Shown piece after piece: positions 4,145 through 50,353 of a stretch of 64,000 nucleotides of DNA. Positions within the stretch are counted from its first letter, which is position 1, and the number at the start of each line of letters is the position of its first letter. The notes beneath the pieces are model-generated. The model saw nothing but the letters and a program-made list of their open reading frames with translations, did not search any database and was not told the origin of the DNA. The stretch comes from Candidatus Omnitrophota bacterium (lineage in GTDB: Bacteria; Omnitrophota; Gorgyraeia; Zapsychrales; Fredricksoniimonadaceae), in assembly GCA_028870995.1 (NCBI GenBank), contig JAGWOI010000003.1:39955-103954 (forward strand). Direction: 5' to 3'. Both the position numbers and the translations under genes were made by a program.

Positions 4145-4172
4145 CCAGTCATAAAACAGGAGGAAAAAAGTA

Positions 4173-22965: not shown

Positions 22966-25900
22966 ATGATAAAGGCCAATAAAACGCCCCTTGTTTGGTT
23001 GGTAATCTTGGCATTCTCGGTCAATACCTTGATCACCGGACCGGTCTTTGCCGACGTTCCTTTTTTACCTGCCCCGGGCAGGCTGGTTCCCTTAACACCT
23101 TCGTTTTCCCCACCGATCATTCTTGGCCTGAAGGTATTCAAAAACAACCCGTTCAAGTTTGAGTTTGTCATGTCCGAGGGGGACCGGGCGCCCGGCCCTG
23201 ACTCGGTGGCCCGCAGGGCCTTTCTTAAAGCTGAGGGCGACAAGCTGGTCAAATATTTTCTGGCCTCCCTGACCATTCCGCAGAAAGACATGTGGGTCAA
23301 CCTCTCACCCTATGAGCATGACCGCATCATTGCACCTGAGTTCGGTATCACCGAAATGGGCAAACAAATGCTGGCTCAGGATTATCTGCTCAAGCAGGTC
23401 ACCGCGTCCGTCATGTACCCCAACGGGGCCGTAGGCCGGGAATTTTGGGGCAAGATTTACCGGGAAGCCTATAAACGCTTTGGCACCACCAATATTCCGG
23501 TCAGCACTTTTAATAAGGTGTGGATTTTGCCGGATAAGGCCGAGGTTTACGAGAACCAGGTTGATAACACGGCAGTGATCATCAAGAGCAGTTTAAAGGT
23601 AATGCTGGAGGAGGATTATCTGGCCCTGCGCAAATCGTCCCTGCCCGGGGAAGTCCATAAAGATTCCAGCGCCGACCGGCAGCTGTCCAATGAACTTATC
23701 CGCCAGATCATCCTGCCTTTGATCGAGAAGGAAGTCAATACGGGGAAGAATTTTGCCGGCTTGCGGCAGGTCTATAATTCCCTGATCCTGGCTTTTTGGT
23801 ATAAGAACAAATTAAAAGAGAGTTTGATCAGTAAAGGATATGTCAACCGCAAGAAAATACACGGGGTGGAGGTCAAGGACAAGAACATTGATGAGGAAAT
23901 TTACCGGCAATATTTGAAATCCTATAAAAAGGGGGTTTACAATTTCATCAAGGAAGAAGTCGACCCTTCCACCCAGGAGACCATTCCGCGTAAATATTTC
24001 TCCGGCGGTATCGTCTGGGACAATCTCGGCCGCCAAATGAGCACGGTCTTTGGCAGGGATTCCGCCCAGGCGGCGTCCCTGATCTTGAAATCAGCCAAGA
24101 CCTTTGAGCTGACCGTCGGCTTGGAAGAAATCCAGCATGCTTCGAGTGGCAATCCGCTTTATTTGGACCTGAACAGCATCACCAGCTCCAAGCCCCTCTT
24201 TTCGGCCCAAGATATTACAAGGCTTAATGAGGCCATTACCGATACTCGGAATTTTTTGGAGCCGGAGCCGGTGGAAGATGCCGCCATGCTGGGCACAACC
24301 ACCCGACGCTGGGCTGCCGCGCTGGTCGGGCTCGCCCTGCTGGCTGGGGCCAATACGGTTTACGCCAAAGGGGCATACGACCCCATGCCGCAACAACCGG
24401 CTGCAACAAACGGGCTTTCAGCAACCTCTGCTCCTTCTACAGCTCCTTCAACGGCGGCCGACTTAAATCATTTATTGAGCAATACGGTTACGAATGCGGT
24501 GAATCCGTTACAAATGCCTGGACCTCAGGCGCTGACGAATACCACGGCAAACGCAAACCCGACCAACCAGATGAGTGCGAATGACCGAGATAAATTCGCC
24601 TTAGACCTTCGAAACGACCAAAACTGGACAAAGCTGCAGGATACGCTTTTATCACCGGATGCACCGTATTTTGTTATTGTAAATACATCTAAGACCAACA
24701 CGTACAGCATCATCCGTTCCTTTGATAAATGGCTGGGTGACGGTTCTGGCCATGACCCCCAATCCTATATCGATTTTGTCTATGGCAGCGGCTCGTCACC
24801 TGATAATCAACCGAATGTTACTTTTAAGATCCGCGTACCCCCACCGGCCAGTCAGGGTAAGGTCGATATTTCAACCATCGATTCCTGGACACAAATCGTC
24901 AATCCGGATCAGATCAAGCAAATCCAGTTGGACCGAAAGACGATCTATGTACAGGTCTTTTGGAAGGACAAGGATGGCCATGCCCAAAGCGGAGTCGTTT
25001 ATGCCGGCCCCAAGGCGGCGCTGACCGTCCAACATATGATGAATGATGCTCAGCTGGACAATGATTTGACACAAAAAATTTTAAAGATCACCAGCATCCC
25101 TGATTATGAAGAGCAGATCAATACCATCCTGAAAACCAGCGGGCTCCCCGAGGCAGGGACTAATGATGTTTCGAAGGAGGGGGGAATCATCGTCGGAGCC
25201 TATGTCCAAAGAGACCAATTTGGTTCCATTACTAGTGTTACCGGTTGGATACATGCCAGGGACATCGATACTCAAATCGTCAAAGGAACCGACGATAAAC
25301 CACACTTGGTCCTTTATAACAACGGCAAGGATCCGCAGATCCTCAAATACTGGCCCTATGGGCAGGACATTGATGTTTTCAGTGTACTGACGCCGGCAGA
25401 ATTAAATATGCTGCACGACCCCCAAACGGCCGATCTGGCTTTGAATAAGTATTTATACAATCTCGGCGGCAGTCCTTTGGAAAGAGGCGGTATTGTTTTC
25501 GGGAAGAATAAGTATATCAAGAAAATGATGGAAGTTGAGGCACAAAAGGCCATTGCCGAACATGACAAGCAGGCCACCAAGGAATATCTGCATTATTTGA
25601 AGGTCAGCGAAAAGGCCGATTTGTTATTTTCCGCGGCCAGCGGGGGACTCTCCGCCGTTGGGATCAATGCACCTGTGAATGCCGTAGGGGACATCTTAGT
25701 TGATATGAAATACCAGCCGGAGAAAATAGGCCAATATGTCCCAACCGCAGAAGAATTGCAGCAGTTATTCAATGAATATAATGCACAACAACCGAAGGAA
25801 GATCAGGTTGTACTGAAAAACGGCAGATTTGAAACCGTCAAAGGCTTTTATACCCAACGGGATATTGAATTACTCGATGGCTGGCTGGTCAAAAGAAATA

Positions 25901-28900
25901 AGGAGAAGACGGCTGCCTTCATTCTCCAACAGGTTTCCAGGATGGCGGTCATTGCCAGCTATTATACGCCTACGAAGACGAAATCCAGCGGTGCCTACCG
26001 ATTTCAAGTGCCTGAAAATGATGCCCTCTATCATTTCTTGGCGCAGGATGTCGGCTCCTTCCTGGGTGAGTTTAATGTGGCGGGACTTTATAATACGGTG
26101 AGCAGTCATGGGTTGCAGTACGTTTCGCTGGGGAATCTTCTTAACAAAGGTTCCTTCTTAAACAAACTTACAAGCGTTCTCGGCGTGACCATTAACGGCC
26201 AGTCCCTGATCAATGAAATCACCGGACGCAAGGTATTCGAGCTGGCTCCCTCAAAAACAAGGATTAATTTTTACGTGCTGGGTTTTCCTATTTCTCATTT
26301 TTTTGAAGAGGATTTGGTGGCCAATATCGATAAGATCCTCAATGACAGAGACTCCTATGCCTTTATCGTCAAAGACGGCCATTTCAGAAGCGTTGCGGTG
26401 GCTTTCACCAAGGATCAATTCCAGGCTTTATATAAGTCCGCCGTGCCCATTGGGAAGATCAGCAATATTTCTCCGGTTGATGGCCGTCCCATGTCCGTGC
26501 CGGTTTATGAAGTTGAGACGATCAGCCCCAGCGGTGAGCATATTCATCAGACCATGGTTTTTACGTTAAAGGCGCTTGAGCAGGCCGGGTTGGATGTCCG
26601 CCGGGATTTGGAGCGGTATGATAATTTTACCAAAATGCTGAATGAAGGCGGCGCCGTCTTCCATTACGGTTCCGACGGCGGGACCCTGTCCCAAAACATC
26701 TATACGGGATTATTCAAATCTTTCAGCCAACAAGGCATGGATGATTTTCCCAGCGCCTATACCTTTGACCAGGCAGGCGCAGATCGTTTCTTTATTGAAA
26801 TGGGGAATTTTCAGTCGGCTAAATGGAATTTGGATTTCTTTTTTGATGTCATGAAGGCGCAGCTGAAGTTGAGCGGCCAATTTCAGGGCTTAAGCAAATC
26901 ATATAATGCTTATAATGGGGCTGATGCTTCCGACCAGCCGGATATCGGGGGAACGTCCATGATGGCCCAAACCATCATGGCTTATGAAAAGTCAACCGGG
27001 GATAAGAAATACCATCTACTGCTGACAGAGTCCATCAAATGGCTCCTGAAAGTCCAGAAAGAAAATGGCGGCAAAGCCTTGCCTGACACCCCCGGCGGGC
27101 ATCTTTTTAATCCTGAACCCAATGCCATTGCTTTCGCGGCCTTGCATAATTTTGGGACTATTTATAACGACAAGGACGCTTTGCTTGCCGCCGATCAGAT
27201 CCGGCAATGGGCGGCTGGTTTGTGGGACAAAGAAAATTTTCTTATCAAATCTCCCAACGGCAATTATCCGGCGGACAACAACACGCGTTGGTTGCAGGCC
27301 CTGGGGCCTAAGGCCTTCATGGAGACCTTCCTTGATAATGATCCGGTGAAGCTGGGCAAATTCTTGCGGGCCATGGAGAAGACCTTCGGCGTTACCGTCA
27401 TCAACTATCATACCGGGCAAACGGTTCACCTGCTTGACCTGGCTGACCAGCAAAAGGCCGACGGACGCCTGACCAACGATCAGCATACACCCAATCACAG
27501 GATAGGATTCCCGGAAGTCACCGCTGAGTTTCTTCAAGGGCTCATTGACTCCCGGCCCTATTTAACGCGTGAGGATGCCGCCTTTGCGGATCAGTTGATC
27601 GCCAAGTACAGCGGGCAATTACAAGCCATGACAGACAGGAACGGGAATCTGCCTCAAGCGACCGATAAAGGCAAAGACAGCGGCTACAACGGCTTGACCA
27701 TTCTGGGCAATCACAGCCTAGCTTCCGGTGTGCAGTATCAATTCATGGTTTTGGGGCTTGATCCTCTTCATTTGGACGGTCCCCGGGGCAACGCCCTTGG
27801 GCTGAAACCTGACAAGATCGAGATCCCGCCGGTCCTGAGTTTTAACACTTTAAATCAGGGAGCCGTCATCAAGCCCGGGGAAACGAATTATTTACAAATG
27901 AGCCGGTATTTTAATCAGCTTATCATTGATGAGCATGCGCATCACAACCGCAATCTTATTTATCATGATCCTATTAACAATTTGCACTTTGTTTATATCA
28001 ATACCGCAGACCATATAGTTGATGCCAGGTTGATCCCCTCACCCAAAGAAATCCAGAAGCAGGTGGTTTTGGCCGGTGAAGATGCACAGATGACCGCTTT
28101 GAAGAGTCAGGCCCTTAACGGGCAGGGGGCTTTCCCGCATGGCGGTGTCATCTTCCAGACACCAGACGGGAAACGTTTAGGAATGCTTAGAGGCGTGGAA
28201 GGCCAGAGTGATGCTGTCGAGGATGTGCTTAGCGCCGTTGGCCAGCTCCCCGTTCAGGAGCAATCTTTCATCAATTACAAAGGTTTCAGTAATTTTATGC
28301 TTCATAATTACAAGGTTGACGGGGTCCATCAGGATGTTATGGTAACGGTTGTTTTTCCGCTTCATAAATCCATTGTACATGATGTGAAGGATGATCATAA
28401 CGTGATAACGACCAGTATTTATGAAGGCGGCCGTTTGCGTTTTATCATCAATGACAACACCACAACCGTAATGAATTATGACGACGCCACAGGAGTTGAG
28501 AGCACCACCACAAGTTATCATAATTTTGCCGGCGGCAGGGAGGCCATGGTTAAGATGTTGTCAGACTCCTCAAAGCCGCTGGCAGAGCGGCAAGCTCTAT
28601 TTAACGGCCAGCATCCCTCGAATAAAACCACGACGGTTTGGGCCGGTTACATCGATCCCACCCTGTCCATGGACCGGGTAGATCCTAACGAGGTTTGGAT
28701 CATCAAGCGATCGACCAACCTCGATACGGGACATGTGACGACCCAGGGCTATGGCTTGTTTACCCGTCCTGTCTGGGAAGCGGACCAGTTTACGGTGACG
28801 GAAAATCATTTTGACCAGTCCGGCAGCTTTACCCATGCCGAACAGTTTCAAAATACAGGCACATTGCAAACCCCTCAAAAAGGCCAAGAGCTTTTTGAGA

Positions 28901-31900
28901 TAAAGGTGCTTGATCCAAATGAGATCAAAGGCTTACCGCAGCAGTTCACAGAAAAGCAGCAACAAGCCCATCAAAGCCTCGTTTATAAAAAGGACGTCAT
29001 CCACGGCACAGAGTCATTGATGGTCATGGATAACGAAAACTACGGCCGTTATACCGCCAAATATACGGCGGATCAATTTACCAATCCTGAAGGCCAGACC
29101 TCAAAATTAAGCACGGTCTTAATTCCTGAATACCGCCCCGATTTTATGGGAGGGCAGGTGCCGTATGTGACACGCGAGTACAGCGGTGCCGGCAAACTAA
29201 TGAAGGAAAGCCTGACCATTTCCATTGATGCCGTCACCCAGGTGACAACCGTTCAAGAGAAGAACATGCGCACCGGTGAGGTGATTGAGAAGAATATTGA
29301 GCCTCTTTTCGGTAATTCGCTGACGGAATCCAAGATGGATTCTTTGGGCCGACAAGAGATTGTGAGCAATGTTTACAGCAACGACTACTTGCACGTCTCT
29401 TCCACCACGGTCATAGGCGGAACCTTGGCTGTCGAGACCAAGGGCACCTATAATCAAGCCGCTCAGCAATGGACCCTGGAACAAACCCGCTGGAATTACA
29501 GCAGGAATGCTCAACAGGAAAAAGTCCCTGTCAAATATGAGACAGTTCGCAGCGTCTTAAGTGCCGGCGGGCATTTGATCTATGAAGATACCATGTTTCC
29601 CCAAAATGTTTATGAAATAAACGGGCATACGTACACCGAAAACGACCGCAGGTTTATCCCGGAATACGACGTAAACGGTAATATCAGCCGCAGTACGGAA
29701 GGAATCATTGCCAATGGAGTTTTTACTCCCAAAGAGATTATGGAATACAGCGATTACGGTGATTTCTTTGCGGCGCGGCAATCGTTCACCAAGCGCATCA
29801 TCAATGGTAAGGAAATCATCTATTCGACCTCCCGGCTGCTGACAACGCCGGCGGAATATCAAAAAAGCGGCAAATTACGTTTCGAGGTCACGAGCAAGGT
29901 CTATGACAAGGCCGATGATCCTGCCACATGGATTGAGACGACTGACAGGGACGGGCATTTGGTCGAGAAATCCCTGCAGGTTTATGACGGCCAAAATCTG
30001 GTCGGTGAACAGGTCACGAGTTTCAGTAATTTCAATGTCCAGAATATTCCTGCTCAATCCACCACCTTTATCCGCCAGGGCGCTGCGAATGAGGTGCTTT
30101 CCACATCTATCGATAAGACTTCCCTTGAGGAGGCCAGGCTTGGCCTGGAGAGAACAGAGATCACCAATCAATTCAACGGCCTGGTCCGCCAGGAATTAAG
30201 AGACCGGCGCGGCCGGGTCATCGAAAACGACATTGAAGGCGTCGATCCGGTGACCGGACGGCAGGAGGTCCAGCGAAAGACTGTTTTTTATAATTTTAAC
30301 GAGTTCGATATTGCGGTTGATTCCGTTACAAAGTCCTTGCTGGAAGGGACCTTCACGCCGTACACGACATCCAAACTTTTGTCGGACTACAACGATATCC
30401 TGACCAATCACAGCATCCGTTTTCATGTGCATAATGATTTCTTAAGCAGCACGGCTAACAGCGTGGACTGGCAGGAAGTCAAGGACTATCACGGACACGT
30501 CATCGAATTGGACAAGGGGCATATGAATCCCAACGGCCAATTTGAGGCAACTCGCAAAATCACGTCAACCTATCAAGGGATCCCGGGTCTGATCGATGTG
30601 GCCAACAGCACCAGGACAGTCATGGTCATTGACGGCAAACCCGGGTTGCTGACCGATCAGAGCCATTTGATCACGGCGCATGGGGTGACCATTGACGCGC
30701 ATAATATCAACACCATTCCGGCCCAGGATATTTTTAACGGGGTGCACAAGGTCCGTTACCAAGGCATCAGCTATTTTACCGAATTGGAGGGTATGACGTC
30801 AACGGACCGCGATTATCAGGAGATAAGAAACAGCCTCGGTAATGTGGAGGTTACCCTGTTCGGAACAGTTGACCCGCAGGGCCATTTTAACAAGAACCGC
30901 AGCTTATACCGTGTTTATGGGACGACGGAAAATAATTTCAGCAACTTTGATATTGCAAAAGCCACTGTGACGACAGTGGGTGATAAAGGGCATGAAGAAG
31001 TGGTTTCTTATTCCAACAACACCCACATCACGGACGATGACCGGTACCTAATTTATAAGACTAAAAAGGGGCTAGGGGCGCAAGGACTTGTCCTGACCAA
31101 TGACGTGTTCGCTAATCTTGGCGCCATCACCGCCCAGGTCTCAGGACCGGAACACCAGTTGGATTTGACCCATCTGACAGAGACCATCAGCCAGGTCAAG
31201 GATTCCGAAGGAAGGGTTATATTTACCTTTTCAGGTTTTCCTTCCCTTAATATCAACGGATTCGGAACTGGCAATCCCGTCTTTGTGACGGTCAACCAGT
31301 ACCAGGAAAACAGGATCAGCCAGCCGGTGGCAGCCCACAGCCAGACTTATTTTTGGAAGAAAGCCATGGGGGATTATGACCCCACGGATAATTTCAATCA
31401 ATTGAAGAACTATATTCATAACAACCATCCGACGGTGATTGCCTCGCTCGACAACCTTATGTTTGACAAAGGCGTTGCCACCTATAAAACCGATGATATG
31501 AGGGAAGTCGGCTTGCGCACCGTGTCCATGCGTCTGGACGGGACCATGTACCGTAATTCTTATCAAGGCTCCGGTGTGGACGGCCCGGCCTTGTTTAATT
31601 TGTATTTTGACGAGCATGAATTACCCAGTTACGGCATGGAAATAGGCCCGAGCGGGATCGAAAAACCGTTCTCTATCTATAGACCGACCTTGTTTAACTA
31701 CGGCACCAATCTTGTACCGTATGTCTTGATCGATGAATTCCGTTCCCCGGAAAAAGGCGCTAATAATGAATTTGATTTTCAAAATCAGAAACCTCACGCT
31801 TCCATCCTGATGCATAACGGTACCATCCAGTTGGTACGCACAGGCTCAGCCGTGCGCACAACGCCGTTCTCTTCCATGTTCAGTTTGGGTGATTTGGAAA

Positions 31901-34900
31901 GGAACGGCGTATTCGGCAAGGCAGTGCGCCTTATTCATGAAACCGACCCTGAGAAAATTATGGACGCTGGCCATCAACAAGCCCAAAGCGGAACAGCCCA
32001 GAGCTATGTTTCTTCGTCAGCTAAGAAAATAACCTTTGAGCAAGAAACCTGGGGACAGAAGGCGGCATGGCTGGGACAACAGGCAGGCTTTTTGTTAGGG
32101 TCATTAGGATTCATGTACGCCGTTGTGCTGGCTGCCCGTATCTTCGGTTTTTCAACCAGCTCGCTTCGTTCATTACGGAAAAAAGACATCAATTCCGCCT
32201 CCCAGCAAAACTTCGAAGATCTTGGCTTCACCAAAGAGCAAAGCCAAATTATTCTGGACGAACGTTTCAGGAACGGCGCATTTTTAAGCCATCAGGATTT
32301 CAAAGACCGCCTGGGGGTAAAATTAAGCAGTGCCCACAAGCTTTCCGAGAAATGGCTGCCCAAAATGATTGCCAAGGCCCGCTTCTGGCTTGCCATGCAA
32401 GAGGTCTCATGGGCCAATGGAGAGGTGCCAGCGGAAAAAAGATTCAATACTCAAGACAGCCTGAGGCTGGCTGCCGCAGCCGATGACTCCGTCGTTGATT
32501 TCATGGCTGAACTTAAAGGCCTGTACGGTCTTAAGCCCGAACAGCAGGCGTCTTATGAAAGCGCCCTAAGGATGTTTGGGAAATACCTCAAGGCCGAACA
32601 ATTGCGCGATATTGTCAATACACCGCATTTCCGGTCTCTGGTCGATCATTACAGCAAACAGCGCGCAGCGGAAGTCATCTTGAAATTGATGTTTGAGAAG
32701 ATCCGCGACAATCAGGATTATAAGAATGCCGTCAGGCAGCGCGTTGACGATATTATCAGCAGCACAGGGATGGGCCGTGAATTCCCTGACCAGATTTTTG
32801 CCCTTAAGGACACCTTCCTTAAGAATATCGAGAATGCGCGGCTGCTTCCGGAAGGCCTGCGTTTCCATGATTTCGATATCAGCACGGATTTGCTGGCTTA
32901 TTCCTGGGATGACTTGCGCAAAGGCCCGGACATGGAGCGTCAGGTAAGAAGCGACCTTGTGTCCATCGAGAAATTGTTTGTCTTCCAGGTGATCTTCCAA
33001 AGGGCCCTCTTCGGCCTGGCAGGCCAGGGCAGGGCGGAAGAATATTTATGGGCCAAGTATGTTTGGCCTTCCATAAACAAGCGTCAAGCCCTGAACGACC
33101 CTGATATTCTCCAGAAGATCAAAGCCTTCAAACAGGTCTTTCATGCCTTGCTGCTGGATGAAGTCAATAAACGCCTGGAAGGCAACCGCGATCCCAAAGG
33201 CAAGGTGCTTTATTTTCAGAATATCGTTAATGAAGAGGTGTATAACGATGCCTTCCGTTATTTGTTAGGCCAGAAAGATCCCACCCTGGCTGATGCGGGT
33301 TGGACTCTGTCCGATGATGTCAAAAAGAAGACAGCGCCTATTAGAGAAAAATTGGAAAAGGCCCTGGCCGACATTAATGAGGTCATCGAACTGCCTTCAG
33401 AACAAAGGGCTGAAGAAGTCAAAACGAAAGCGGAAAAGATTAAGCCCCTGGTCCTTGCCTATGTCGGCGCGGTTGATCAACAGATCGGTATGCCGGTGCT
33501 CAAAGGACGCCTGTCTTATTGGCAGCTGACCGTCAACCCCTTGCTTAAGATACTGGGTAATAAAAAGATGCGCCAGCGGATTTTTTCCAAAGGCGGCCCC
33601 TACAACCAAAGCGCGCATGACCTGGTGCGGCGCCTCAATCATTATATTATTTTTGGATCGGTTGCCGTGATGTTTGCCGGCCTGACCCTTAACCTGTTCA
33701 GCGTCTTTCCCTTCATGGTCCCGCCGAGCTTTATTATGGCACCATGGTCCCCTTTGTTGGCAGGCGCGGCCGCCACAGTCACCTCCTTTGTCGGTTCATG
33801 GCTGGTCAAAAAAAGATTGATCAGTTCCTTAAATAAGAAATTAAAGAACGTGAACGAAGAACAAAATAAGGGGAAGAATAAAGAACAGCAGGAAAAGGTC
33901 ATTAAATCGTTCGGCTCCAAGGTAAAGTATCTATACCTTGCTCAAGCCGGTCTTGTCTTAGGCTCCTTGCTGTTGATGCCCACGCTGGCACCGGCGCTGA
34001 CGGCGTGGCTGGGCATTGCTCCTCAAATGTTACCGGTAGCTCCCTTCATTCGTTTTGCCATCCATCTGATACCGGTCATGATCTTCATCGATACCTGGCG
34101 GTTGTCCTTCTATGCCATGAACCATCTGGTTTCAGCCATGGCCTTGCAGCAATATTATGCCACCAATAATGTTTACGAAATCAACAATAAGTCCAGGACA
34201 GACAAAATAACCGGACGTTTAATGGCCCTTTTTAAAGATACCGCTCCGGCACTGGGGACTGTTTATAAAACGCGCGGCCAGGAACGCCTGGCCTCCTTTG
34301 TCAATGTGGTGGATGAAATGACCAGCGAAAAGGACAATTATTTCTTCGCAAAAAATATCGATAAGCAAGGGAAATCTTCTTTGACCGCTAAGCTTTCTCA
34401 ACTGGCAGGGGAACTGGTGGATGCTCAAGGCAAGCCTGATGCAGACAAGATAAGAGATCTGCAGGAAGAAATCGAAACATTTGTGGAAAAAGTAGCAATA
34501 CCTATCAATGTGGAAGGGAAAACAGCTGCCAAATCAGAGAAGCTTGGGCTGCAGAAGCTGGTTGATTTTGTTAATCATAACTACCGCCTGGATAAGGGGG
34601 CGAATCCTTCAACCTGGGGCCATGTGATTCCCACGACCGTGGCCATTATCGGCTACAGTGAAGACTGGTACTTTACCAACGGCGAGCTGCTGGATATCAA
34701 CCGCGGAACGTTCGAAGAGTCGACGATCATTGGAAAATTTGAAAACAGTACGACTGGCCATGACGTCCTGGATAAATTGCTTAAGCACGGCATTCTGCTT
34801 CAAGAAGGCTTAATGTCCAGGAAGGAAGAATTTAAGCGTAAGGTGCGCGTCAACGTGGATTTAAGCGACAAGGAGATCAAACAAATAGCATTGAATGCGG

Positions 34901-37900
34901 GCATAGATGAAAGCGATTTTAATAAAATCGCGCCTCTCCTGAAGGAATGGCGCGACGCCCAGAATGAAGCACAAGAATTTACCCATCGCCTGGGCATGCT
35001 GGCCAAATATAAAACAGAATTGTTCTTGCTCATGGTCAACCGCTTGACCAAGCCAGACTCCCTTGAACGCACAGAGCTTTTGAAAATGATCGATGATCCG
35101 ACCCATGTCCCTGAAGGCATCCTGGACTGGGAGATCTGGCCGCAGATACAGGAATGGGCCAACCTGCAGTTGCCAACGGGCTATGCCAATGCAGTGACCC
35201 AAAAACGTACCCTGATGCGTTTATATACGCATTATGCCAGAATATTCGGCGTAGCTAATCCCGAGGCCGCTGCTGAAGAGAAGATCCGTGTCATTGACCG
35301 CAATCTTATGGCCATGGATGCTTTGAATAAGGTGCTGATTCACGCCGTTGCCAAGACCACCTTTATTAAAGAATTCACGCAAGGGGAGCAGATTTTTAAT
35401 TGGTTGATGGGAAAAGGGTATTTTTATAATGAAGGCAAGAAACAAAATCCGCCCGTGCCTCCGGTTGATGGTCTTCCCAAACCATTGACAGCAGATTCTA
35501 AGAAAAAATTAAAGGAGCAATTCCCCGGGGACTATGAACGTATTGTTCCCATCCTGGAAGAAGCCGGCAGGGGCAGATTAAGAGAGATGCTGGATGTTTT
35601 GATTGAAACAGGGTATCAAGATACTTATAAAGTTTATCCGGATGGGACAAGCAGAGGTGTAAAGGATCCCTATAAGCTTATTAAGGACAATCAAGACAGG
35701 ATCATGGGGGGGATTGATAAAATTAGATACGATATCGATATGTTGACAAAGTTGATGGATTCCATCAAGTATGACCGGCTGTTCCCGGCCAGGTTAAAAG
35801 GCGGAGGGGTAGACACCGCCGATTTATTAACGGGAGAAAATTACCATGGCGCGAAATGGAACCAGAAAACAGCTATCCTGCCTTTCCTGGTGGGACCGGT
35901 TATCCTTAACCTTGATGCCGACCACCGTGCCAATTATGTGGATTACGAATCCCTTCCCAACCATTTGCTGGATTACAATTATTGGCCCGGCCTGGCTGTT
36001 TCAACGCCCATCGTCAAGCACACCTTGACCAAGGGCTTGGGTGTTTTCGGGAACATCCTGCCGGTCTCGGAGAATGCATTTTATTATCATGCCCAGCAGG
36101 CCAAGGAACTTTTCGGCGGCTTGACCGCGACGGGAAAGCTCTTCGAAAGGGTCTCAGCCCTCCGGCATTCCGAGGGAGTTACGGATTCTTATGTCGCCGA
36201 GGATGCGTTGTCGGCAATCAATTACCGGCGGTTCGGTTATGTCACCGGCCGCGCAGGCGCAGTAAAGGTGGAAAAGGGCTGGCCGTTCTCTTTCGCCGCG
36301 GCATCAACCCCGACGAGGAAGTGGTCTTATGACTCGGTGGAATCCGTCAGCGGCAGGACCGCCATGAAGGTGTACATGTCTCCGCTGGTTGACTGGCCAT
36401 TCCTGGTCAACAATTTCTGGCTGGACGGTTTTGGGTTTTATTTCAAGAAACCGGGGATCGTCCGCTATCTGCGCTGGCTGGTGGCGTTCTACCTGGTCAT
36501 GGATTGGAACCTTTTTTCCAACATTCCCCTCTCCATGTGGGTCGGCAGCATGATGCTTTCCCAGTCCATCAGCCAGGGCTTGTTTTTTTATAAGATATTC
36601 GACGAATCGCGGGGCTATGTAAAAGGCACGCTCAGCGCTTTGGGCAGCATTGCGGCCAGGATGTACAGTTATTTTGTGCATCAGGTCTTTGTTTTTGAGG
36701 AAACGGTGGGCAAACTTGCGCCCAACCGTTTGGGTAAATTCCTTTCAACGGCCTCCAAAGGGTCCAACCAGACCCGCATACAGAACAAGGACCTGATGTA
36801 TGTGCGCAGCAATTATGCCATCAAATCAGCCTCTGTTATGGCGGGGGTGACCTTGACCTTGATAGGTTTGTCCCTCAAAAAGTCCGGTTTATGGGCTCTT
36901 ACCCTGGGCATGGGTTTTGCCGGGGTGGCTGCACCGTTTTTGTTAAATCCGGTGCGGATCAGGAAACGTGTAAAAGATAATTTCAGCAATGGGAAGGATA
37001 TTGGAGGCGCTTTTGTCTGGGGCCTGACGGACAATGTGGAAATGCTGATGTATTATCTCAGCGGGTTATTGGCGCGCGTAGGGATAAAATCTTTTCGTTC
37101 AACAGAAGATGACCTGCAGATCAAGGTCTTAGACATGGTCCAGGCCAGAGTATCTCAGCCGTTGGACAAAATCCCTACCGGAAAATGGGGAACGACCTTT
37201 AAGGAAGCCTTTGGTCAGCAGGCCGAAGCCGCGGCTGAATTGGCCGAATACATATATTTATTCCATCAAAAGCCCAGCCATTATCGCAGCATGTATGGCC
37301 GTTCCGTCCTGCCTGCCGTTAACGGACTGTTAAAGATCCTGGCCAATAATCCCGGAAAAGAAGGAACGGATTATTCAAAGAAAATATTAGGGGATGAATT
37401 GGGGGCCTATAAGGAAGCCTTGGGGGTCCGCTTTAAGGAAGTTAAACAATATTTGGAGGTTTTTAAGCATGCCAAGGGGTATGAAAAAATGGTCAGAGAC
37501 GCCGAAAAACAGCTCGCTAAGGCGGATGAAATTTTAAAAAAGACTTCACCGTCAGCAAAGCAGCTGAACCGTGCCGATTGGTTGTTGACCCAGCTTTCCT
37601 GGATCCCGATGCGTATTCAGCGTCAACCTGGAACAATATCAAAACTGAGAGACCAATTTTTAAACACCATGATCGGCGTTGATGCCGTCTCTCAATTAGT
37701 GGCTTTTGCTTGGCTGCCTCTGCGATTATTCTTGGACAGGATAACAAGGACCCCTAAAACTGTTGAGAATGAAAAGAAGGCCTTGGAAATACCGAAATCC
37801 ACCGTTGTTCCTTTGGCGCCCAAAGCCGCGGAAGATAAGGCCATGGCAAGTTCTCCCAAACCCGCAGGAGTCAATAGGATTGCCAAGATTACCAATCCCG

Positions 37901-38085
37901 GCGGTATTGACCTTTCCAAAACAAGGGTCAAAGTCAGTGCCAGGAGTACACCCATTAAAATCAGCTACGATGATCCCGCTTTATTGCGTTTGTTGTTGAA
38001 TGCCGATGGGCTTGCCCCTATAATTTATAGCGTAAGAACAATGACCCCATCCATGGCTGATCATTTTGTAGGTTTGGACTATTGA
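22966..38085 (+). CDS. giant (5,039 aa) secreted / polytopic membrane protein of unknown function
   Basis: A single uninterrupted 15,120-nt ORF in the ORF track. It has an N-terminal signal peptide (MIKANKTPLVWLVILAFSVNTLITGPVFA). There are no internal stops, and none of the ORFs on the other frames or strand exceeds 173 aa. The amino-acid composition is ordinary along its whole length. Domain hints are given in the findings. An RBS-like AAGAAAG lies upstream. Confidence 0.7.
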   Translation: MIKANKTPLVWLVILAFSVNTLITGPVFADVPFLPAPGRLVPLTPSFSPPIILGLKVFKNNPFKFEFVMSEGDRAPGPDSVARRAFLKAEGDKLVKYFLASLTIPQKDMWVNLSPYEHDRIIAPEFGITEMGKQMLAQDYLLKQVTASVMYPNGAVGREFWGKIYREAYKRFGTTNIPVSTFNKVWILPDKAEVYENQVDNTAVIIKSSLKVMLEEDYLALRKSSLPGEVHKDSSADRQLSNELIRQIILPLIEKEVNTGKNFAGLRQVYNSLILAFWYKNKLKESLISKGYVNRKKIHGVEVKDKNIDEEIYRQYLKSYKKGVYNFIKEEVDPSTQETIPRKYFSGGIVWDNLGRQMSTVFGRDSAQAASLILKSAKTFELTVGLEEIQHASSGNPLYLDLNSITSSKPLFSAQDITRLNEAITDTRNFLEPEPVEDAAMLGTTTRRWAAALVGLALLAGANTVYAKGAYDPMPQQPAATNGLSATSAPSTAPSTAADLNHLLSNTVTNAVNPLQMPGPQALTNTTANANPTNQMSANDRDKFALDLRNDQNWTKLQDTLLSPDAPYFVIVNTSKTNTYSIIRSFDKWLGDGSGHDPQSYIDFVYGSGSSPDNQPNVTFKIRVPPPASQGKVDISTIDSWTQIVNPDQIKQIQLDRKTIYVQVFWKDKDGHAQSGVVYAGPKAALTVQHMMNDAQLDNDLTQKILKITSIPDYEEQINTILKTSGLPEAGTNDVSKEGGIIVGAYVQRDQFGSITSVTGWIHARDIDTQIVKGTDDKPHLVLYNNGKDPQILKYWPYGQDIDVFSVLTPAELNMLHDPQTADLALNKYLYNLGGSPLERGGIVFGKNKYIKKMMEVEAQKAIAEHDKQATKEYLHYLKVSEKADLLFSAASGGLSAVGINAPVNAVGDILVDMKYQPEKIGQYVPTAEELQQLFNEYNAQQPKEDQVVLKNGRFETVKGFYTQRDIELLDGWLVKRNKEKTAAFILQQVSRMAVIASYYTPTKTKSSGAYRFQVPENDALYHFLAQDVGSFLGEFNVAGLYNTVSSHGLQYVSLGNLLNKGSFLNKLTSVLGVTINGQSLINEITGRKVFELAPSKTRINFYVLGFPISHFFEEDLVANIDKILNDRDSYAFIVKDGHFRSVAVAFTKDQFQALYKSAVPIGKISNISPVDGRPMSVPVYEVETISPSGEHIHQTMVFTLKALEQAGLDVRRDLERYDNFTKMLNEGGAVFHYGSDGGTLSQNIYTGLFKSFSQQGMDDFPSAYTFDQAGADRFFIEMGNFQSAKWNLDFFFDVMKAQLKLSGQFQGLSKSYNAYNGADASDQPDIGGTSMMAQTIMAYEKSTGDKKYHLLLTESIKWLLKVQKENGGKALPDTPGGHLFNPEPNAIAFAALHNFGTIYNDKDALLAADQIRQWAAGLWDKENFLIKSPNGNYPADNNTRWLQALGPKAFMETFLDNDPVKLGKFLRAMEKTFGVTVINYHTGQTVHLLDLADQQKADGRLTNDQHTPNHRIGFPEVTAEFLQGLIDSRPYLTREDAAFADQLIAKYSGQLQAMTDRNGNLPQATDKGKDSGYNGLTILGNHSLASGVQYQFMVLGLDPLHLDGPRGNALGLKPDKIEIPPVLSFNTLNQGAVIKPGETNYLQMSRYFNQLIIDEHAHHNRNLIYHDPINNLHFVYINTADHIVDARLIPSPKEIQKQVVLAGEDAQMTALKSQALNGQGAFPHGGVIFQTPDGKRLGMLRGVEGQSDAVEDVLSAVGQLPVQEQSFINYKGFSNFMLHNYKVDGVHQDVMVTVVFPLHKSIVHDVKDDHNVITTSIYEGGRLRFIINDNTTTVMNYDDATGVESTTTSYHNFAGGREAMVKMLSDSSKPLAERQALFNGQHPSNKTTTVWAGYIDPTLSMDRVDPNEVWIIKRSTNLDTGHVTTQGYGLFTRPVWEADQFTVTENHFDQSGSFTHAEQFQNTGTLQTPQKGQELFEIKVLDPNEIKGLPQQFTEKQQQAHQSLVYKKDVIHGTESLMVMDNENYGRYTAKYTADQFTNPEGQTSKLSTVLIPEYRPDFMGGQVPYVTREYSGAGKLMKESLTISIDAVTQVTTVQEKNMRTGEVIEKNIEPLFGNSLTESKMDSLGRQEIVSNVYSNDYLHVSSTTVIGGTLAVETKGTYNQAAQQWTLEQTRWNYSRNAQQEKVPVKYETVRSVLSAGGHLIYEDTMFPQNVYEINGHTYTENDRRFIPEYDVNGNISRSTEGIIANGVFTPKEIMEYSDYGDFFAARQSFTKRIINGKEIIYSTSRLLTTPAEYQKSGKLRFEVTSKVYDKADDPATWIETTDRDGHLVEKSLQVYDGQNLVGEQVTSFSNFNVQNIPAQSTTFIRQGAANEVLSTSIDKTSLEEARLGLERTEITNQFNGLVRQELRDRRGRVIENDIEGVDPVTGRQEVQRKTVFYNFNEFDIAVDSVTKSLLEGTFTPYTTSKLLSDYNDILTNHSIRFHVHNDFLSSTANSVDWQEVKDYHGHVIELDKGHMNPNGQFEATRKITSTYQGIPGLIDVANSTRTVMVIDGKPGLLTDQSHLITAHGVTIDAHNINTIPAQDIFNGVHKVRYQGISYFTELEGMTSTDRDYQEIRNSLGNVEVTLFGTVDPQGHFNKNRSLYRVYGTTENNFSNFDIAKATVTTVGDKGHEEVVSYSNNTHITDDDRYLIYKTKKGLGAQGLVLTNDVFANLGAITAQVSGPEHQLDLTHLTETISQVKDSEGRVIFTFSGFPSLNINGFGTGNPVFVTVNQYQENRISQPVAAHSQTYFWKKAMGDYDPTDNFNQLKNYIHNNHPTVIASLDNLMFDKGVATYKTDDMREVGLRTVSMRLDGTMYRNSYQGSGVDGPALFNLYFDEHELPSYGMEIGPSGIEKPFSIYRPTLFNYGTNLVPYVLIDEFRSPEKGANNEFDFQNQKPHASILMHNGTIQLVRTGSAVRTTPFSSMFSLGDLERNGVFGKAVRLIHETDPEKIMDAGHQQAQSGTAQSYVSSSAKKITFEQETWGQKAAWLGQQAGFLLGSLGFMYAVVLAARIFGFSTSSLRSLRKKDINSASQQNFEDLGFTKEQSQIILDERFRNGAFLSHQDFKDRLGVKLSSAHKLSEKWLPKMIAKARFWLAMQEVSWANGEVPAEKRFNTQDSLRLAAAADDSVVDFMAELKGLYGLKPEQQASYESALRMFGKYLKAEQLRDIVNTPHFRSLVDHYSKQRAAEVILKLMFEKIRDNQDYKNAVRQRVDDIISSTGMGREFPDQIFALKDTFLKNIENARLLPEGLRFHDFDISTDLLAYSWDDLRKGPDMERQVRSDLVSIEKLFVFQVIFQRALFGLAGQGRAEEYLWAKYVWPSINKRQALNDPDILQKIKAFKQVFHALLLDEVNKRLEGNRDPKGKVLYFQNIVNEEVYNDAFRYLLGQKDPTLADAGWTLSDDVKKKTAPIREKLEKALADINEVIELPSEQRAEEVKTKAEKIKPLVLAYVGAVDQQIGMPVLKGRLSYWQLTVNPLLKILGNKKMRQRIFSKGGPYNQSAHDLVRRLNHYIIFGSVAVMFAGLTLNLFSVFPFMVPPSFIMAPWSPLLAGAAATVTSFVGSWLVKKRLISSLNKKLKNVNEEQNKGKNKEQQEKVIKSFGSKVKYLYLAQAGLVLGSLLLMPTLAPALTAWLGIAPQMLPVAPFIRFAIHLIPVMIFIDTWRLSFYAMNHLVSAMALQQYYATNNVYEINNKSRTDKITGRLMALFKDTAPALGTVYKTRGQERLASFVNVVDEMTSEKDNYFFAKNIDKQGKSSLTAKLSQLAGELVDAQGKPDADKIRDLQEEIETFVEKVAIPINVEGKTAAKSEKLGLQKLVDFVNHNYRLDKGANPSTWGHVIPTTVAIIGYSEDWYFTNGELLDINRGTFEESTIIGKFENSTTGHDVLDKLLKHGILLQEGLMSRKEEFKRKVRVNVDLSDKEIKQIALNAGIDESDFNKIAPLLKEWRDAQNEAQEFTHRLGMLAKYKTELFLLMVNRLTKPDSLERTELLKMIDDPTHVPEGILDWEIWPQIQEWANLQLPTGYANAVTQKRTLMRLYTHYARIFGVANPEAAAEEKIRVIDRNLMAMDALNKVLIHAVAKTTFIKEFTQGEQIFNWLMGKGYFYNEGKKQNPPVPPVDGLPKPLTADSKKKLKEQFPGDYERIVPILEEAGRGRLREMLDVLIETGYQDTYKVYPDGTSRGVKDPYKLIKDNQDRIMGGIDKIRYDIDMLTKLMDSIKYDRLFPARLKGGGVDTADLLTGENYHGAKWNQKTAILPFLVGPVILNLDADHRANYVDYESLPNHLLDYNYWPGLAVSTPIVKHTLTKGLGVFGNILPVSENAFYYHAQQAKELFGGLTATGKLFERVSALRHSEGVTDSYVAEDALSAINYRRFGYVTGRAGAVKVEKGWPFSFAAASTPTRKWSYDSVESVSGRTAMKVYMSPLVDWPFLVNNFWLDGFGFYFKKPGIVRYLRWLVAFYLVMDWNLFSNIPLSMWVGSMMLSQSISQGLFFYKIFDESRGYVKGTLSALGSIAARMYSYFVHQVFVFEETVGKLAPNRLGKFLSTASKGSNQTRIQNKDLMYVRSNYAIKSASVMAGVTLTLIGLSLKKSGLWALTLGMGFAGVAAPFLLNPVRIRKRVKDNFSNGKDIGGAFVWGLTDNVEMLMYYLSGLLARVGIKSFRSTEDDLQIKVLDMVQARVSQPLDKIPTGKWGTTFKEAFGQQAEAAAELAEYIYLFHQKPSHYRSMYGRSVLPAVNGLLKILANNPGKEGTDYSKKILGDELGAYKEALGVRFKEVKQYLEVFKHAKGYEKMVRDAEKQLAKADEILKKTSPSAKQLNRADWLLTQLSWIPMRIQRQPGTISKLRDQFLNTMIGVDAVSQLVAFAWLPLRLFLDRITRTPKTVENEKKALEIPKSTVVPLAPKAAEDKAMASSPKPAGVNRIAKITNPGGIDLSKTRVKVSARSTPIKISYDDPALLRLLLNADGLAPIIYSVRTMTPSMADHFVGLDY

Positions 38086-45945: not shown

Positions 45946-47032
45946 ATGAAAGAGGCCATTCTATATTTGCAGGACGCCGCGAGTTTTCGCGGCCGTACGT
46001 TAAAAGAAGCAGGGGAGACCGCAGGCGAGGTTGTCTTCAATACAGCCATGACCGGTTACCAGGAAGTCCTCACGGATCCCTCCTATACCGGCCAGATCGT
46101 CGTGATGACCTATCCGCTGATCGGCAATTACGGCGTCAACGAAGAGGACATCGAATCCGACCGGGTGCATGTCAAGGGCTTCGTAGTCAAGGAATTCTGC
46201 CGCCGTCCTTCCAATTGGCGCGCCAAGAAAAGCCTCACCGAATATTTAAATGAAAATAAGATCATTGCCATGGAAGGCGTGGACACCCGCGCCCTGACCC
46301 GTCATTTGCGCATTTCCGGGGCCATGAAGGCCATTATCTCCACGGAAGATTTCGACCCTAAAAGTTTACAGCGTAAACTGGATGCCATGCCGTCGATGGA
46401 GGGAATGGATTTCGTCAAGGACGTCAGCACGGCCAAAAAATACGTGTGGAAGCATTCCGGTCCCCGCCGCTACAAGATCGCGGCCATCGATTGCGGCATC
46501 AAATACAATATCTTGCGCATTTTGGCGGACTTAGGCTGCGAGATCCATGTGTTCCCGGCCAAGACGAGGCCCGCGGAGATCATGGCCATCAAGCCGGACG
46601 GCTTATTCCTGTCCAACGGTCCCGGCGATCCGGCCGTGGTCAACTATGTCATTGATACGGTGCGGGAATGCTTAGGGAAGCTGCCCATCTTCGGCATCTG
46701 CCTGGGCAACCAGATCTTGGGGCTGGCCCTGGGCGGCAAGACCTATAAATTGAAGTTCGGCCACCATGGCGCCAACCATCCTGTCAAAGATTTTGAAGGC
46801 AACCGTATTGCGGTCACCAGCCAAAACCACGGCTTTTGCGTGGATCTTAAAAGCCTTAATAGCGACGATGTTGAAGTGATCCACACCAATTTGAACGACC
46901 AAAGTGTGGAGGGCATCCGGCACAAGCATTTTCCGGCTTTTTCCATCCAATACCATCCGGAATCGGCGCCGGGACCGCATGATGCCCATTATTTGTTCAA
47001 CCATTTTATCGCCATGATCGAGAAGCATAAAA

Positions 47033-47040
<8 letters not shown>
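45946..47040 (+). CDS. carA: carbamoyl-phosphate synthase small subunit
   Basis: 364 aa. CPSase small-subunit N-domain plus GATase1 ([31 protein letters not shown]). Confidence 0.9.
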
Positions 47041-50347
<3,307 letters not shown>

Positions 50348-50353
50348 GGTTTT

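What the first reader, a model, noticed from the sequence alone, without database searches (positions are those of the whole stretch)
32215..32330. ComEA-like helix-hairpin-helix motif in a predicted cytoplasmic segment of the giant protein
Residues …LGFTKEQSQIILDERFRNGAFLSHQDFKDRLGVKLSSAHKLSEK… align position-for-position with the competence protein ComEA HhH region (…LPGIGPKKAEAIIEYREENGGFKSVEDLKNVSGIGEKTFEKLK…). Shared residues are G, K, I[IL], R, NG, F, S, D, K, G[IV], K and L. It lies just after the first TM helix (nt 32061-32150). If the ~3,000-aa N-terminal part is outside the cell, this motif faces the cytoplasm. A sequence-nonspecific DNA-binding module inside a giant envelope protein is unexpected. 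It could tether the protein to the nucleoid. If the topology is reversed, it could bind extracellular DNA.
Basis: seen in the sequence. Interest (0 to 1): 0.55.

Follow-up and report, generated by a model that had tools for sequence, protein, structure and literature searches.

The report
Degenerate ComEA-type helix-hairpin-helix module
A short stretch of a 5,039-residue Omnitrophota membrane protein really is a distant relative of the ComEA-type DNA-binding helix-hairpin-helix domain and probably faces the cytoplasm, but it has lost half of the motif and the DNA-contacting lysines, so it is more likely a structural remnant than a DNA tether.

Summary
Residues 3074-3122 (nt 32185-32331) of the 5,039-aa ORF 22966-38085 are homologous to the HHH_3/ComEA-type domain. 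Alone the segment scores 19 bits against Pfam HHH_3, below the 27-bit cutoff. The link is significant through relatives: an exhaustive search pulled out a true 5xHHH_3 protein, a family-versus-HHH_3 profile comparison gave 96.9% probability, and one orthologue passes the Pfam cutoff. An AlphaFold model (pLDDT 82) matches only HhH proteins structurally, none significantly.

The module sits right after a transmembrane helix and a K/R linker in 12 aligned relatives; two more carry recognisable copies. All named relatives are uncharacterised giant proteins, mostly Omnitrophota. Charge bias, and a weak BcsA-like GT2 core on the same membrane side, place it in the cytoplasm.

The DNA-binding interpretation is weak:
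- Only the first HhH, the R-x-x-N-G-x-F connector and one further helix are conserved.
- The second hairpin is neither conserved nor predicted.
- The hairpin is G-F-T, not G-I-G.
- The position of the essential ComEA lysine is Q, E, V, D or W, never K or R.
- The core is acidic in 9 of 12 relatives.

I read it as a degenerate juxtamembrane HhH module with a structural or adaptor role. Weak DNA or RNA binding is not excluded. Interest is modest.

The parts
22966..38085 (+). Giant ORF of 5,039 aa that hosts the module. It has an N-terminal signal-like segment, an ectodomain of about 3,000 aa, a TM helix, the HhH module, a conserved cytoplasmic region, TM blocks, a GT2-like core and a C-terminal domain.
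   Evidence: Searches show an uninterrupted frame. It aligns along most of its length with P0002 (5,066 aa), in four BLAST segments running to both ends, and with P0001 (6,502 aa).
32089..32145 (+). Transmembrane helix, aa 3042-3060 (FLLGSLGFMYAVVLAARIF).
   Evidence: Kyte-Doolittle peak of 1.92. An equivalent helix is present in all 12 aligned relatives.
32146..32184 (+). Basic juxtamembrane linker, aa 3061-3073 (GFSTSSLRSLRKK).
   Evidence: The C-terminal flank carries net +3, made up of five K/R and one D. A K/R cluster sits at this position in all 12 aligned relatives. By the positive-inside rule this is the cytoplasmic side.
32185..32331 (+). HHH_3-type module, aa 3074-3122. It contains the cap D-I-N-S-A (32185-32199), helix 1, the hairpin L-G-F-T (32221-32232), helix 2 ending in R (3101), the connector N-G-A-F (32272-32283) and helix 3. 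The non-conserved LGVK at 32311-32322 stands in place of a second hairpin.
   Evidence: Pfam HHH_3 at 19 bits, E 0.0015. P0018-repeat HMM i-E 2e-8, with 0 of 2,000 shuffles reaching the score. hhalign 96.9%. Profile against PDB: EEPD1 4e-8, ComEA 3-6e-3. AF2 model with pLDDT 82.4 and three helices. Foldseek top hits are all HhH proteins but with E>1.
32332..33633 (+). Conserved region of about 430 aa with no known domain, aa 3123-3556. It lies between the module and the next TM block, on the same membrane side as the module.
   Evidence: Conserved at 26-64% identity in relatives. Pfam and PDB sequence searches found nothing.
33634..34098 (+). Two hydrophobic blocks, aa 3557-3614 and aa 3653-3711, each read as a TM hairpin. 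A K-rich loop (aa 3615-3652) separates them.
   Evidence: Hydropathy and flank charges: the flanks are +2 and +6, then +2/+3 and +1. The pattern is repeated in P0001 and P0002.
35845..36333 (+). Probable divergent processive GT2 core (BcsA-like). Motifs: H-G-A-K-W-N (35845-35862), D-A-D-H (35914-35925), Y-V-A-E-D (36190-36204) and R-K-W (36316-36324).
   Evidence: A family profile hits only BcsA chains in the PDB (E 0.22). The alignment places DADH on BcsA D246-A-D248-H249 and AED on T341-E342-D343. Glyco_trans_2_3 hits 5 of 10 members weakly, best E 0.008. The assignment is tentative: the AF2 model of this region failed.

Best explanation
Residues 3074-3122 are a diverged, half-degenerate descendant of the ComEA-type HHH_3 domain. 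The conserved parts are the N-cap (D/N-x-N-x-A), the first helix-hairpin-helix with a G-F-T hairpin in place of G-I-G, the R-x-x-N-G-x-F connector and one further helix. The second hairpin is lost.

The module is held about 14 residues from the inner face of the membrane by a TM helix and a K/R linker. It opens a conserved cytoplasmic region of a giant, mostly Omnitrophota membrane protein. The C-terminal half of that protein looks like a processive GT2 (BcsA-like) synthase.

Shown here: homology to HHH_3, conservation of the module and its position across the family, and loss of the canonical DNA-contact residues.

Inferred:
- Cytoplasmic location, from the positive-inside rule and the side of the GT2-like core.
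- That the module no longer works as a ComEA-like stand-alone DNA clamp. Instead it would be a small structural or protein-interaction module at the membrane interface, like the non-DNA HhH domains of GspK or PsbU. It might link the TM anchor of the ectodomain to the cytoplasmic machinery.

Any nucleic-acid binding would be weak and would need multivalency, as in EEPD1.
For: Homology:
- An exhaustive phmmer of aa 3030-3560 against 1.84 billion representatives found only 19 proteins. One (P0018, library-wide E 2e-4) matches solely through this module. Pfam reads P0018 as 5xHHH_3 at E 6e-82.
- The orthologous copy in P0007 passes the Pfam HHH_3 cutoff (32.3 bits). P0006 passes the HHH_6 cutoff (31.3 bits).
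- 9 of 12 family segments hit HHH_3.
- hhalign gave 96.9%. The profile hits EEPD1 and ComEA in the PDB.

Fold: AF2 pLDDT 82.4 with helices at 11-16, 21-34 and 40-53 of the 62-aa construct. All 16 Foldseek hits are HhH-containing proteins, including XcpX/GspK, KIF22, Tex, ComEA 8dss and Pol III alpha.

Degeneracy:
- Matches to HHH_3 profiles stop near position 46 of 65 in most relatives.
- The second-hairpin glycine is present in only about 5 of 12 relatives.
- Counting from the hairpin G, position +5 corresponds to V. cholerae ComEA K63 and B. subtilis K164. K63A cut transformation about 250-fold and K63E abolished it. It is Q in 8 copies, E in 4, and V, D or W in one each, so never K or R (PMC3879209, PMC9747964).
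- The core pI is 4.1-5.7 in 9 of 12 relatives, against 8.3-9.7 for 4 of the 5 P0018 repeats.

Topology:
- There is a K/R cluster after the TM helix in all 12 aligned relatives.
- The later TM blocks have K-rich flanks.
- The GT2-like motifs lie on the same side.

Multivalency: the isolated tandem (HhH)2 fragment of EEPD1 does not bind DNA (PMC12988330).
Against: - The window sequence alone is below the Pfam cutoff (19 against 27 bits).
- Foldseek E-values are all above 1.
- No experiment or electrostatic calculation was possible. Basic residues flank the core: the RSLRKK linker, and K/R in the following helix KLSEKWLPKMIAKAR. These could still contact nucleic acid.
- A G-h-T/S hairpin also occurs in EEPD1, whose HhH domains do contribute to dsDNA binding.
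- The proposed structural or adaptor role is argued by elimination. It has no positive evidence such as a partner or co-varying interface.
- Topology rests on hydropathy and charge bias only. A conserved internal signal-like segment (aa 449-467) leaves the N-terminal topology unresolved.
- The GT2 assignment is marginal (E 0.2).
Confidence: 0.55

Rival explanations
1. The module is a working, sequence-nonspecific nucleic-acid-binding module in the cytoplasm that tethers the giant envelope protein to the nucleoid, or to RNA.
For: Homology to a DNA-binding family is real. The closest solved relatives are DNA binders: EEPD1, ComEA and Pol III alpha. EEPD1 uses G-V-T and G-L-S hairpins like the G-F-T here (alignment). 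The flanking linker and following helix are basic. One relative (P0007) has a tandem second copy, as expected if paired HhH units matter.
Against: The essential ComEA lysine position is never basic in any family copy. The second hairpin is lost. The core is acidic in 9 of 12 relatives. A single HhH gives very little affinity: even the two tandem (HhH)2 domains of EEPD1 do not bind DNA alone (PMC12988330). There are no DNA-related genes or domains in the protein or its neighbourhood.
Confidence: 0.2
2. The topology is reversed, so the module faces the periplasm or exterior and binds extracellular or prey DNA like membrane-anchored ComEA.
For: The linear order TM helix, linker, HHH_3 is the same as in Gram-positive ComEA and in P0018. 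A conserved internal signal-like segment at aa 449-467 would, if it spans the membrane together with the N-terminal one, flip everything downstream.
Against: Net positive charge follows the TM helix in all 12 aligned relatives, whereas in P0018 it precedes the helix. The K-rich loop at aa 3615-3652 and the GT2-like catalytic motifs would end up outside, which is incompatible with nucleotide-sugar use. The DNA-contact lysines are absent.
Confidence: 0.07
3. It is a UBA-like or other generic three-helix bundle, and its resemblance to HhH is local or convergent.
For: The family profile hits the HUWE1 UBA domain at E 2.7e-4 through the M-G-F-T...A motif. Single members hit UBA, UBA_3 and UBA_7 weakly. 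The model has three helices.
Against: The UBA match covers only 23 positions. HHH_3-type matches cover 43-46 positions including the N-cap and the R..NG.F connector. HHH_3 is hit by 9 of 12 members against 1 of 12 for each UBA family. No UBA structure appears among the Foldseek hits.
Confidence: 0.08
4. The match is a chance similarity in a long protein.
For: Single-sequence scores are sub-threshold. phmmer against the PDB found nothing.
Against: 0 of 2,000 shuffles reach the score. The HHH_3-repeat HMM gave only one meaningful hit in 5,039 aa. The module is conserved at the same position across relatives that are only about 21-26% identical in this part of the protein. An orthologue passes the Pfam cutoff.
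Confidence: 0.02

Closest known systems
ComEA C-terminal DNA-binding domain (Pfam HHH_3, PF12836; PDB 8DSS, 8DFK)
   Same: It shares the N-cap (D/N-h-N-x-A), a first HhH, a helix 2 ending in R, and a loop connector (N)G-x-F in place of a connector helix. That connector is the atypical feature described for ComEA in PMC9747964. The module also follows a TM anchor in the linear sequence.
   Different: The hairpin is G-F-T, not G-I-G. The second HhH is not conserved or predicted. The key lysine (Vc K63, Bs K164) is Q or E. The core is acidic. It is predicted to be cytoplasmic rather than periplasmic. It is embedded at residue ~3,080 of a 5,039-aa protein. There is no SLBB or oligomerisation domain.
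EEPD1 N-terminal (HhH)2 domains (PDB 9YI2 sequence; PMC12988330)
   Same: This is the best solved-structure sequence match to the family profile (E 4e-8, two copies). It has the same G-h-T/S hairpin variant and the same Y/E-R...G-x-F...eD-L/F pattern.
   Different: EEPD1 has four complete HhH motifs per chain and works as a dimeric DNA clamp together with an EEP domain. Here there is one half-degenerate copy and no nuclease domain.
Non-DNA-binding HhH-clan domains: T2SS minor pseudopilin GspK/XcpX (PF03934) and PsbU (PF06514)
   Same: XcpX is the top Foldseek hit (6utu_C, TMq 0.63). 3 of 12 family members hit T2SSK. PsbU appears at the margin of the PDB profile search. These show that this fold is reused as a structural module outside DNA metabolism. 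That last point comes from my own knowledge of the Pfam HHH clan and was not tested here.
   Different: There is no significant sequence relationship to either family. The cellular locations and partners differ.
Bacterial cellulose synthase BcsA (GT2), as a comparison for the host protein
   Same: The motifs H-x-A-K-x-N, D-x-D-H and (T/A)-E-D align on BcsA H224/K226/N229, D246/D248 and E342/D343. An R-K-W motif lies 40 residues after the ED. That equals the BcsA D343-W383 spacing as I recall it. TM helices lie on both sides.
   Different: E-values are marginal (0.2). There are large lineage-specific insertions and no PilZ domain. The core is fused to a ~3,000-aa ectodomain and to the HhH module.

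Membership tests
Pfam HHH_3 (PF12836) | The sequence scores above the curated gathering threshold (27 bits). | tested here: not met
   The window segment scores 19.0-19.1 bits, E 0.0014-0.0015. In long context it scores 12.9 bits.
Pfam HHH_3 (PF12836) | Homology can be shown through a family profile or through orthologues. | tested here: met
   The orthologous copy in P0007 scores 32.3 bits, E 1e-7. 9 of 12 members hit HHH_3, best E 3e-6. hhalign against bona fide repeats gave 96.9%, E 1.7e-10. P0018 (5xHHH_3) was retrieved at library-wide E 2e-4.
Pfam HHH_3 / (HhH)2-type domains | Two helix-hairpin-helix motifs, each with a G-h-G type hairpin. | tested here: not met
   The first hairpin is G-F-T: the first G is present in 10 of 12 relatives and the second G is never present. 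The second hairpin is not conserved. Profile matches end at about position 46 of 65. AF2 predicts a continuous helix there.
ComEA (TIGR01259 comE) | The score reaches the curated cutoff (152 bits) for the ComEA subfamily. | tested here: not met
   12.7 bits, E 0.096.
ComEA | A conserved lysine after the HhH1 hairpin (V. cholerae K63, B. subtilis K164) that is required for DNA binding and transformation. | tested here: not met
   The aligned position is Q3091 in the window. In relatives it is Q, E, V, D or W, never K or R. Residue roles are taken from PMC3879209 and PMC9747964.
ComEA | Extracytoplasmic location: a secreted or N-in membrane-anchored protein with the HhH domain outside. | tested here: not met
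   Charge bias places the module on the cytoplasmic side. This is prediction only, with no dedicated topology predictor or experiment.
ComEA | Binds double-stranded DNA without sequence specificity. | not testable with these tools
   This needs EMSA or anisotropy on the purified fragment.
UBA domain | A three-helix bundle of about 40 aa with an M-G-F/Y loop and a profile match over the whole domain. | tested here: inconclusive
   HUWE1 UBA hits at E 2.7e-4 but only over 23 profile positions. 1 of 12 members hits each UBA family. No UBA appears among the Foldseek hits.
Processive GT2 synthases (BcsA-like), for the host protein | The catalytic motifs DxD, (T)ED and QxxRW in order, flanked by TM helices, with a significant profile match. 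| tested here: inconclusive
   The motifs are present, invariant in the family, and aligned on BcsA D246/D248 and E342/D343. However E is 0.22, Pfam Glyco_trans_2_3 reaches only E 0.008 at best, the longer profile found nothing and the AF2 model failed.

The most novel reading that the evidence does not exclude
The module keeps weak, multivalency-dependent nucleic-acid binding. A giant envelope protein would then physically couple a ~3,000-aa surface ectodomain and a polysaccharide-synthase-like core to the chromosome or to RNA in ultra-small Omnitrophota cells. In the reversed topology it would handle prey DNA.
Probability: 0.12. Interest if true: 0.65.

Novelty: new variant of a known kind. 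Interest (0 to 1): 0.3.

Why it matters
The module gives the first recognisable domain landmark in an otherwise unannotated, very rare family of giant proteins. The family has 19 representatives among 1.84 billion and is mostly Omnitrophota. The module also fixes a likely membrane topology: ectodomain outside, HhH module and GT2-like core inside.

It is a clean example of an HHH_3 domain that has lost the features needed for ComEA-like DNA binding. That warns against annotating such proteins as DNA-binding or competence-related. If the module did bind nucleic acid, it would link a giant surface protein to the nucleoid, which would be unusual. The present evidence points the other way.

Tried and rejected
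- Word-indexed homologue searches, with aa 3030-3560 and with the domain alignment, found nothing. Only the exhaustive search worked.
- phmmer of the 86-aa piece against PDB sequences found nothing.
- Megablast against plasmids found nothing.
- Pfam and NCBIfam on the first 3,000 aa found nothing. phmmer of both halves against the PDB found nothing useful.
- The AF2 model of the GT2-like region (aa 3840-4680, 10-sequence alignment) failed with pLDDT 39, so it was not fold-searched.
- The 669-position profile of that region against the PDB found nothing.
- Two Omnitrophota giant-protein preprints were checked for HhH or ComEA. Neither mentions them.
- Rejected: chance similarity.
- Rejected: a full ComEA-like two-motif domain.
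- Rejected: competence gene context. The neighbours are nitrogen- and glutamine-metabolism genes.
Full report
WHAT IS THERE

The finding lies inside one uninterrupted ORF, nt 22966-38085 on the + strand, 5,039 aa. Nt 32215-32330 translate to EDLGFTKEQSQIILDERFRNGAFLSHQDFKDRLGVKLS, which is residues 3084-3121. A hydrophobic helix at aa 3042-3060 (nt 32089-32145; Kyte-Doolittle 1.92) precedes it. The basic stretch GFSTSSLRSLRKK follows that helix.

IS IT MORE THAN CHANCE?

Single-sequence searches are sub-threshold, but all point to the same family.
- Pfam HHH_3 scores E=0.13 in the 2,139-aa C-terminal half.
- On a 64-aa piece it scores E=0.0015 and 19 bits, against a cutoff of 27. HHH_6 is second at E=0.02.
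- NCBIfam comE scores E=0.096, 12.7 bits against a cutoff of 152.
- phmmer against PDB sequences found nothing.

Relatives made the link significant.
- An exhaustive phmmer of aa 3030-3560 against 1.84 billion representative proteins found only 19 proteins.
- One of them, P0018 (486 aa), matches only through the module, four to five times over. Pfam reads it as five HHH_3 domains (E 6e-82).
- An HMM built from those five repeats gave one meaningful hit in the giant protein, at aa 3070-3122, with i-E 2e-8. The only other reported domain scored -2.1 bits. None of 2,000 shuffles of the segment reached the real score (30.2 bits against a maximum of 10.1).
- hhalign of the 12-sequence family alignment against the repeats gave 96.9% probability and E 1.7e-10 over 46 columns.
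- The orthologous copy in P0007 passes the Pfam HHH_3 cutoff (32.3 bits). P0006 passes the HHH_6 cutoff.
- 9 of 12 family segments hit HHH_3.
- The family profile hits EEPD1 (two HhH copies, E 4e-8), ComEA 8DSS/8DFK (3-6e-3) and Pol III alpha (6e-3) among solved structures.

ANATOMY AND CONSERVATION

In all 12 aligned relatives the order is the same. P0003 and P0009 carry recognisable copies as well.
1. A TM helix.
2. A K/R cluster.
3. [D/N]-x-N-x-A.
4. Helix 1.
5. A G-F-T hairpin.
6. Helix 2, with the pattern ..Q/E...I...R.
7. The connector x-x-N-G-x-F.
8. Helix 3, with the pattern ...D-F..R.

It is part of the HHH_3 signature.

Conservation stops there. The position of the second hairpin (LGVK in the window) is G in only about 5 of 12 relatives. 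Profile matches end at about position 46 of 65 in most relatives.

An AlphaFold2 model built from 11 family sequences is confident (pLDDT 82.4). It shows three helices, at 11-16, 21-34 and 40-53 of the 62-aa construct. LGVK lies inside the third helix.

Foldseek against the PDB gives no significant E-value, which is usual for about 60 helical residues. All 16 listed hits are HhH-containing proteins: XcpX/GspK, KIF22, Tex, ComEA 8dss (TMq 0.62), TEFM, Rad51, AlkA and Pol III alpha.

One relative, P0007, carries a tandem second copy.

DOES IT LOOK LIKE A DNA BINDER?

Published work gives the residues that matter in ComEA.
- In V. cholerae ComEA the lysine pair after the G-I-G hairpin is required. 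K63A cut transformation about 250-fold. K63E and K62/63A abolished it. G60V and G60E, in the hairpin, left cells non-transformable (PMC3879209).
- In B. subtilis the equivalent K164 is described as at least as conserved as the HhH signature residues. K199 in the second motif also matters (PMC9747964).

The family compares as follows, using the profile alignment to 8DSS and the constant 13-residue distance from the hairpin G to the conserved R.
- The second hairpin G is T or S, or occasionally another residue.
- Position +4 is E in the window and is basic in only one relative.
- Position +5, the K63/K164 equivalent, is Q in 8 copies, E in 4, and V, D or W in one each. It is never K or R.
- The core module has pI 4.1-5.7 in 9 of 12 relatives. 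Four of the five P0018 repeats are basic, pI 8.3-9.7.

Two caveats apply. EEPD1, the best solved match, also has G-V-T and G-L-S hairpins and no lysine at +5, yet its HhH domains contribute to dsDNA binding. They do so only cooperatively: the isolated fragment with both (HhH)2 domains does not bind DNA (PMC12988330). In addition, the linker and the following helix here are basic. Weak, multivalent nucleic-acid contact therefore cannot be excluded. A ComEA-like stand-alone DNA receptor is not supported.

TOPOLOGY

- The flank after the TM helix carries net +3, against -1 before it. A K/R cluster is conserved there in every aligned relative.
- Downstream there are two hydrophobic blocks of about 58 aa, aa 3557-3614 and 3653-3711. 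Each has positive flanks on both sides, including the very K-rich loop at aa 3615-3652. P0001 and P0002 show the same pattern.
- The natural reading is two TM hairpins. That places the module, the K-rich loop and the region after aa 3711 on one side, the cytoplasm.
- That later region contains family-invariant motifs H-G-A-K-W-N, D-A-D-H, Y-V-A-E-D and R-K-W.
- A profile of this region hits only BcsA chains in the PDB (E 0.22). The alignment puts DADH on BcsA D246-A-D248-H249 and AED on T341-E342-D343.
- 5 of 10 members hit Pfam Glyco_trans_2_3 weakly.
- A nucleotide-sugar-using GT2 core must be cytoplasmic, which agrees with the charge-based topology.

The GT2 assignment remains tentative. 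The AF2 model of that region failed (pLDDT 39), and a longer profile found nothing.

One feature is unresolved. A signal-peptide-like segment at aa 441-470 (TTTRRWAAALVGLALLAGANTVYA|KG) follows a conserved N-terminal domain of about 390 aa. P0001 and P0002 have an equivalent segment. If both this segment and the N-terminal hydrophobic segment spanned the membrane, everything downstream would flip. Four charge-biased flanks and the GT2-like core argue against that.

CONTEXT

The family is tiny and uncharacterised.
- Eight of the ten members looked up carry a source name. Six are from Candidatus Omnitrophota or Omnitrophica and one is from Endomicrobiales, and those seven are all called hypothetical. 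The eighth, P0001 from JGI/IMG, is labelled 'uncharacterized protein YcbK (DUF882 family)'.
- A 40%-identical relative lies in an Omnitrophota MAG.
- A neighbouring gene of the window occurs in MAG GCA_028865175.1, on a contig that breaks off inside the giant gene.
- The neighbours are housekeeping genes of nitrogen and glutamine metabolism, with no competence, pilus or DNA-processing genes.
- Two preprints on giant Omnitrophota proteins do not mention HhH or ComEA.

VERDICT

The functional reading as a DNA tether is not supported.

The most likely description is a degenerate, cytoplasmic, juxtamembrane HHH_3-derived three-helix module that serves as a structural or interaction element at the start of the conserved cytoplasmic region (confidence about 0.55).

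Rivals:
- A working nucleic-acid tether: about 0.2.
- A UBA-like bundle: about 0.08.
- A reversed topology that binds extracellular DNA: about 0.07.
- Chance similarity: about 0.02.

It is a new variant of a known domain in a new architectural context. Interest is modest (0.3).

Noticed in passing
window 22966-38085: The 5,039-aa protein contains no cysteine at all. Sixteen other ORFs of the window average 1.45% Cys (143 of 9,842), giving P of about 1e-32. Relatives are also Cys-poor: 0 in P0002, P0004 and P0009, and at most 0.6% elsewhere. The ectodomain and the membrane/cytoplasmic half are both affected.
   Followed up: partly
window 24286-24375 (aa 441-470): An internal signal-peptide-like segment (MLGTTTRRWAAALVGLALLAGANTVYA|KG) follows a conserved N-terminal domain of about 390 aa. 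P0001 (aa 868-893) and P0002 (aa 359-382) have equivalent segments. It suggests an old gene fusion or an unusual topology or processing step, and it leaves the N-terminal topology unresolved.
   Followed up: partly
window 35845-36333: Family-invariant motifs H-G-A-K-W-N, D-A-D-H, Y-V-A-E-D and R-K-W align with the catalytic motifs of cellulose synthase BcsA (E 0.22). The giant protein may be a processive GT2 synthase fused to a ~3,000-aa ectodomain. The AF2 model of the region failed (pLDDT 39).
   Followed up: partly
window 34696-34953 and 35338-35571 (aa 3911-3996, 4125-4202): These are lineage-specific insertions inside the GT2-like region. They are absent from P0002 and most relatives. The first contains a helical unit, ...LLKHGILLQEG...DLSDKEIKQIALNAGI..., which resembles units repeated twice in P0001.
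   Followed up: no
window about 29338-31220 (aa 2125-2750): A D-x-x-G-[R/H/N] motif recurs at roughly 100-aa spacing (aa 2125, 2235, 2327, 2413, 2507, 2636, 2746). This hints at about seven divergent repeats of a ~100-aa domain in the ectodomain. Self-BLAST does not detect them, and Pfam finds nothing in the first 3,000 aa.
   Followed up: no
window 37900-38082: The C-terminal ~60 aa (NPGGIDLSKTRVKV...DDPALLRLLLNADGL...F.GL) are conserved in P0001 and P0002. The GGIDL motif occurs nowhere else in the six-frame translation of the window. This may be a terminal sorting or interaction domain.
   Followed up: partly
window 2151-22211 and 45946-53337: The giant gene is embedded in a run of nitrogen- and glutamine-dependent genes: a GAF-ANTAR regulator, an ammonium transporter, type III glutamine synthetase, NAD synthase, glutamate synthase large and small subunits, carbamoyl-phosphate synthase small and large chains, an amidophosphoribosyltransferase-like protein and CTP synthase.
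   Followed up: no
P0007 aa 983-1025 and 1052-1087: One relative has a tandem duplication of the HhH module. The first copy passes the Pfam HHH_3 cutoff.
   Followed up: partly
L001 (GCA_028865175.1, JAGWKV010000030.1): The public MAG contig that carries an identical upstream TPR lipoprotein gene ends 339 codons into the giant gene. The gene is therefore fragmented in that assembly.
   Followed up: no
window 60228-63281: A 1,017-aa protein with immunoglobulin-like (Ig_3, I-set) and InlB B-repeat-like domains, probably another surface protein.
   Followed up: no
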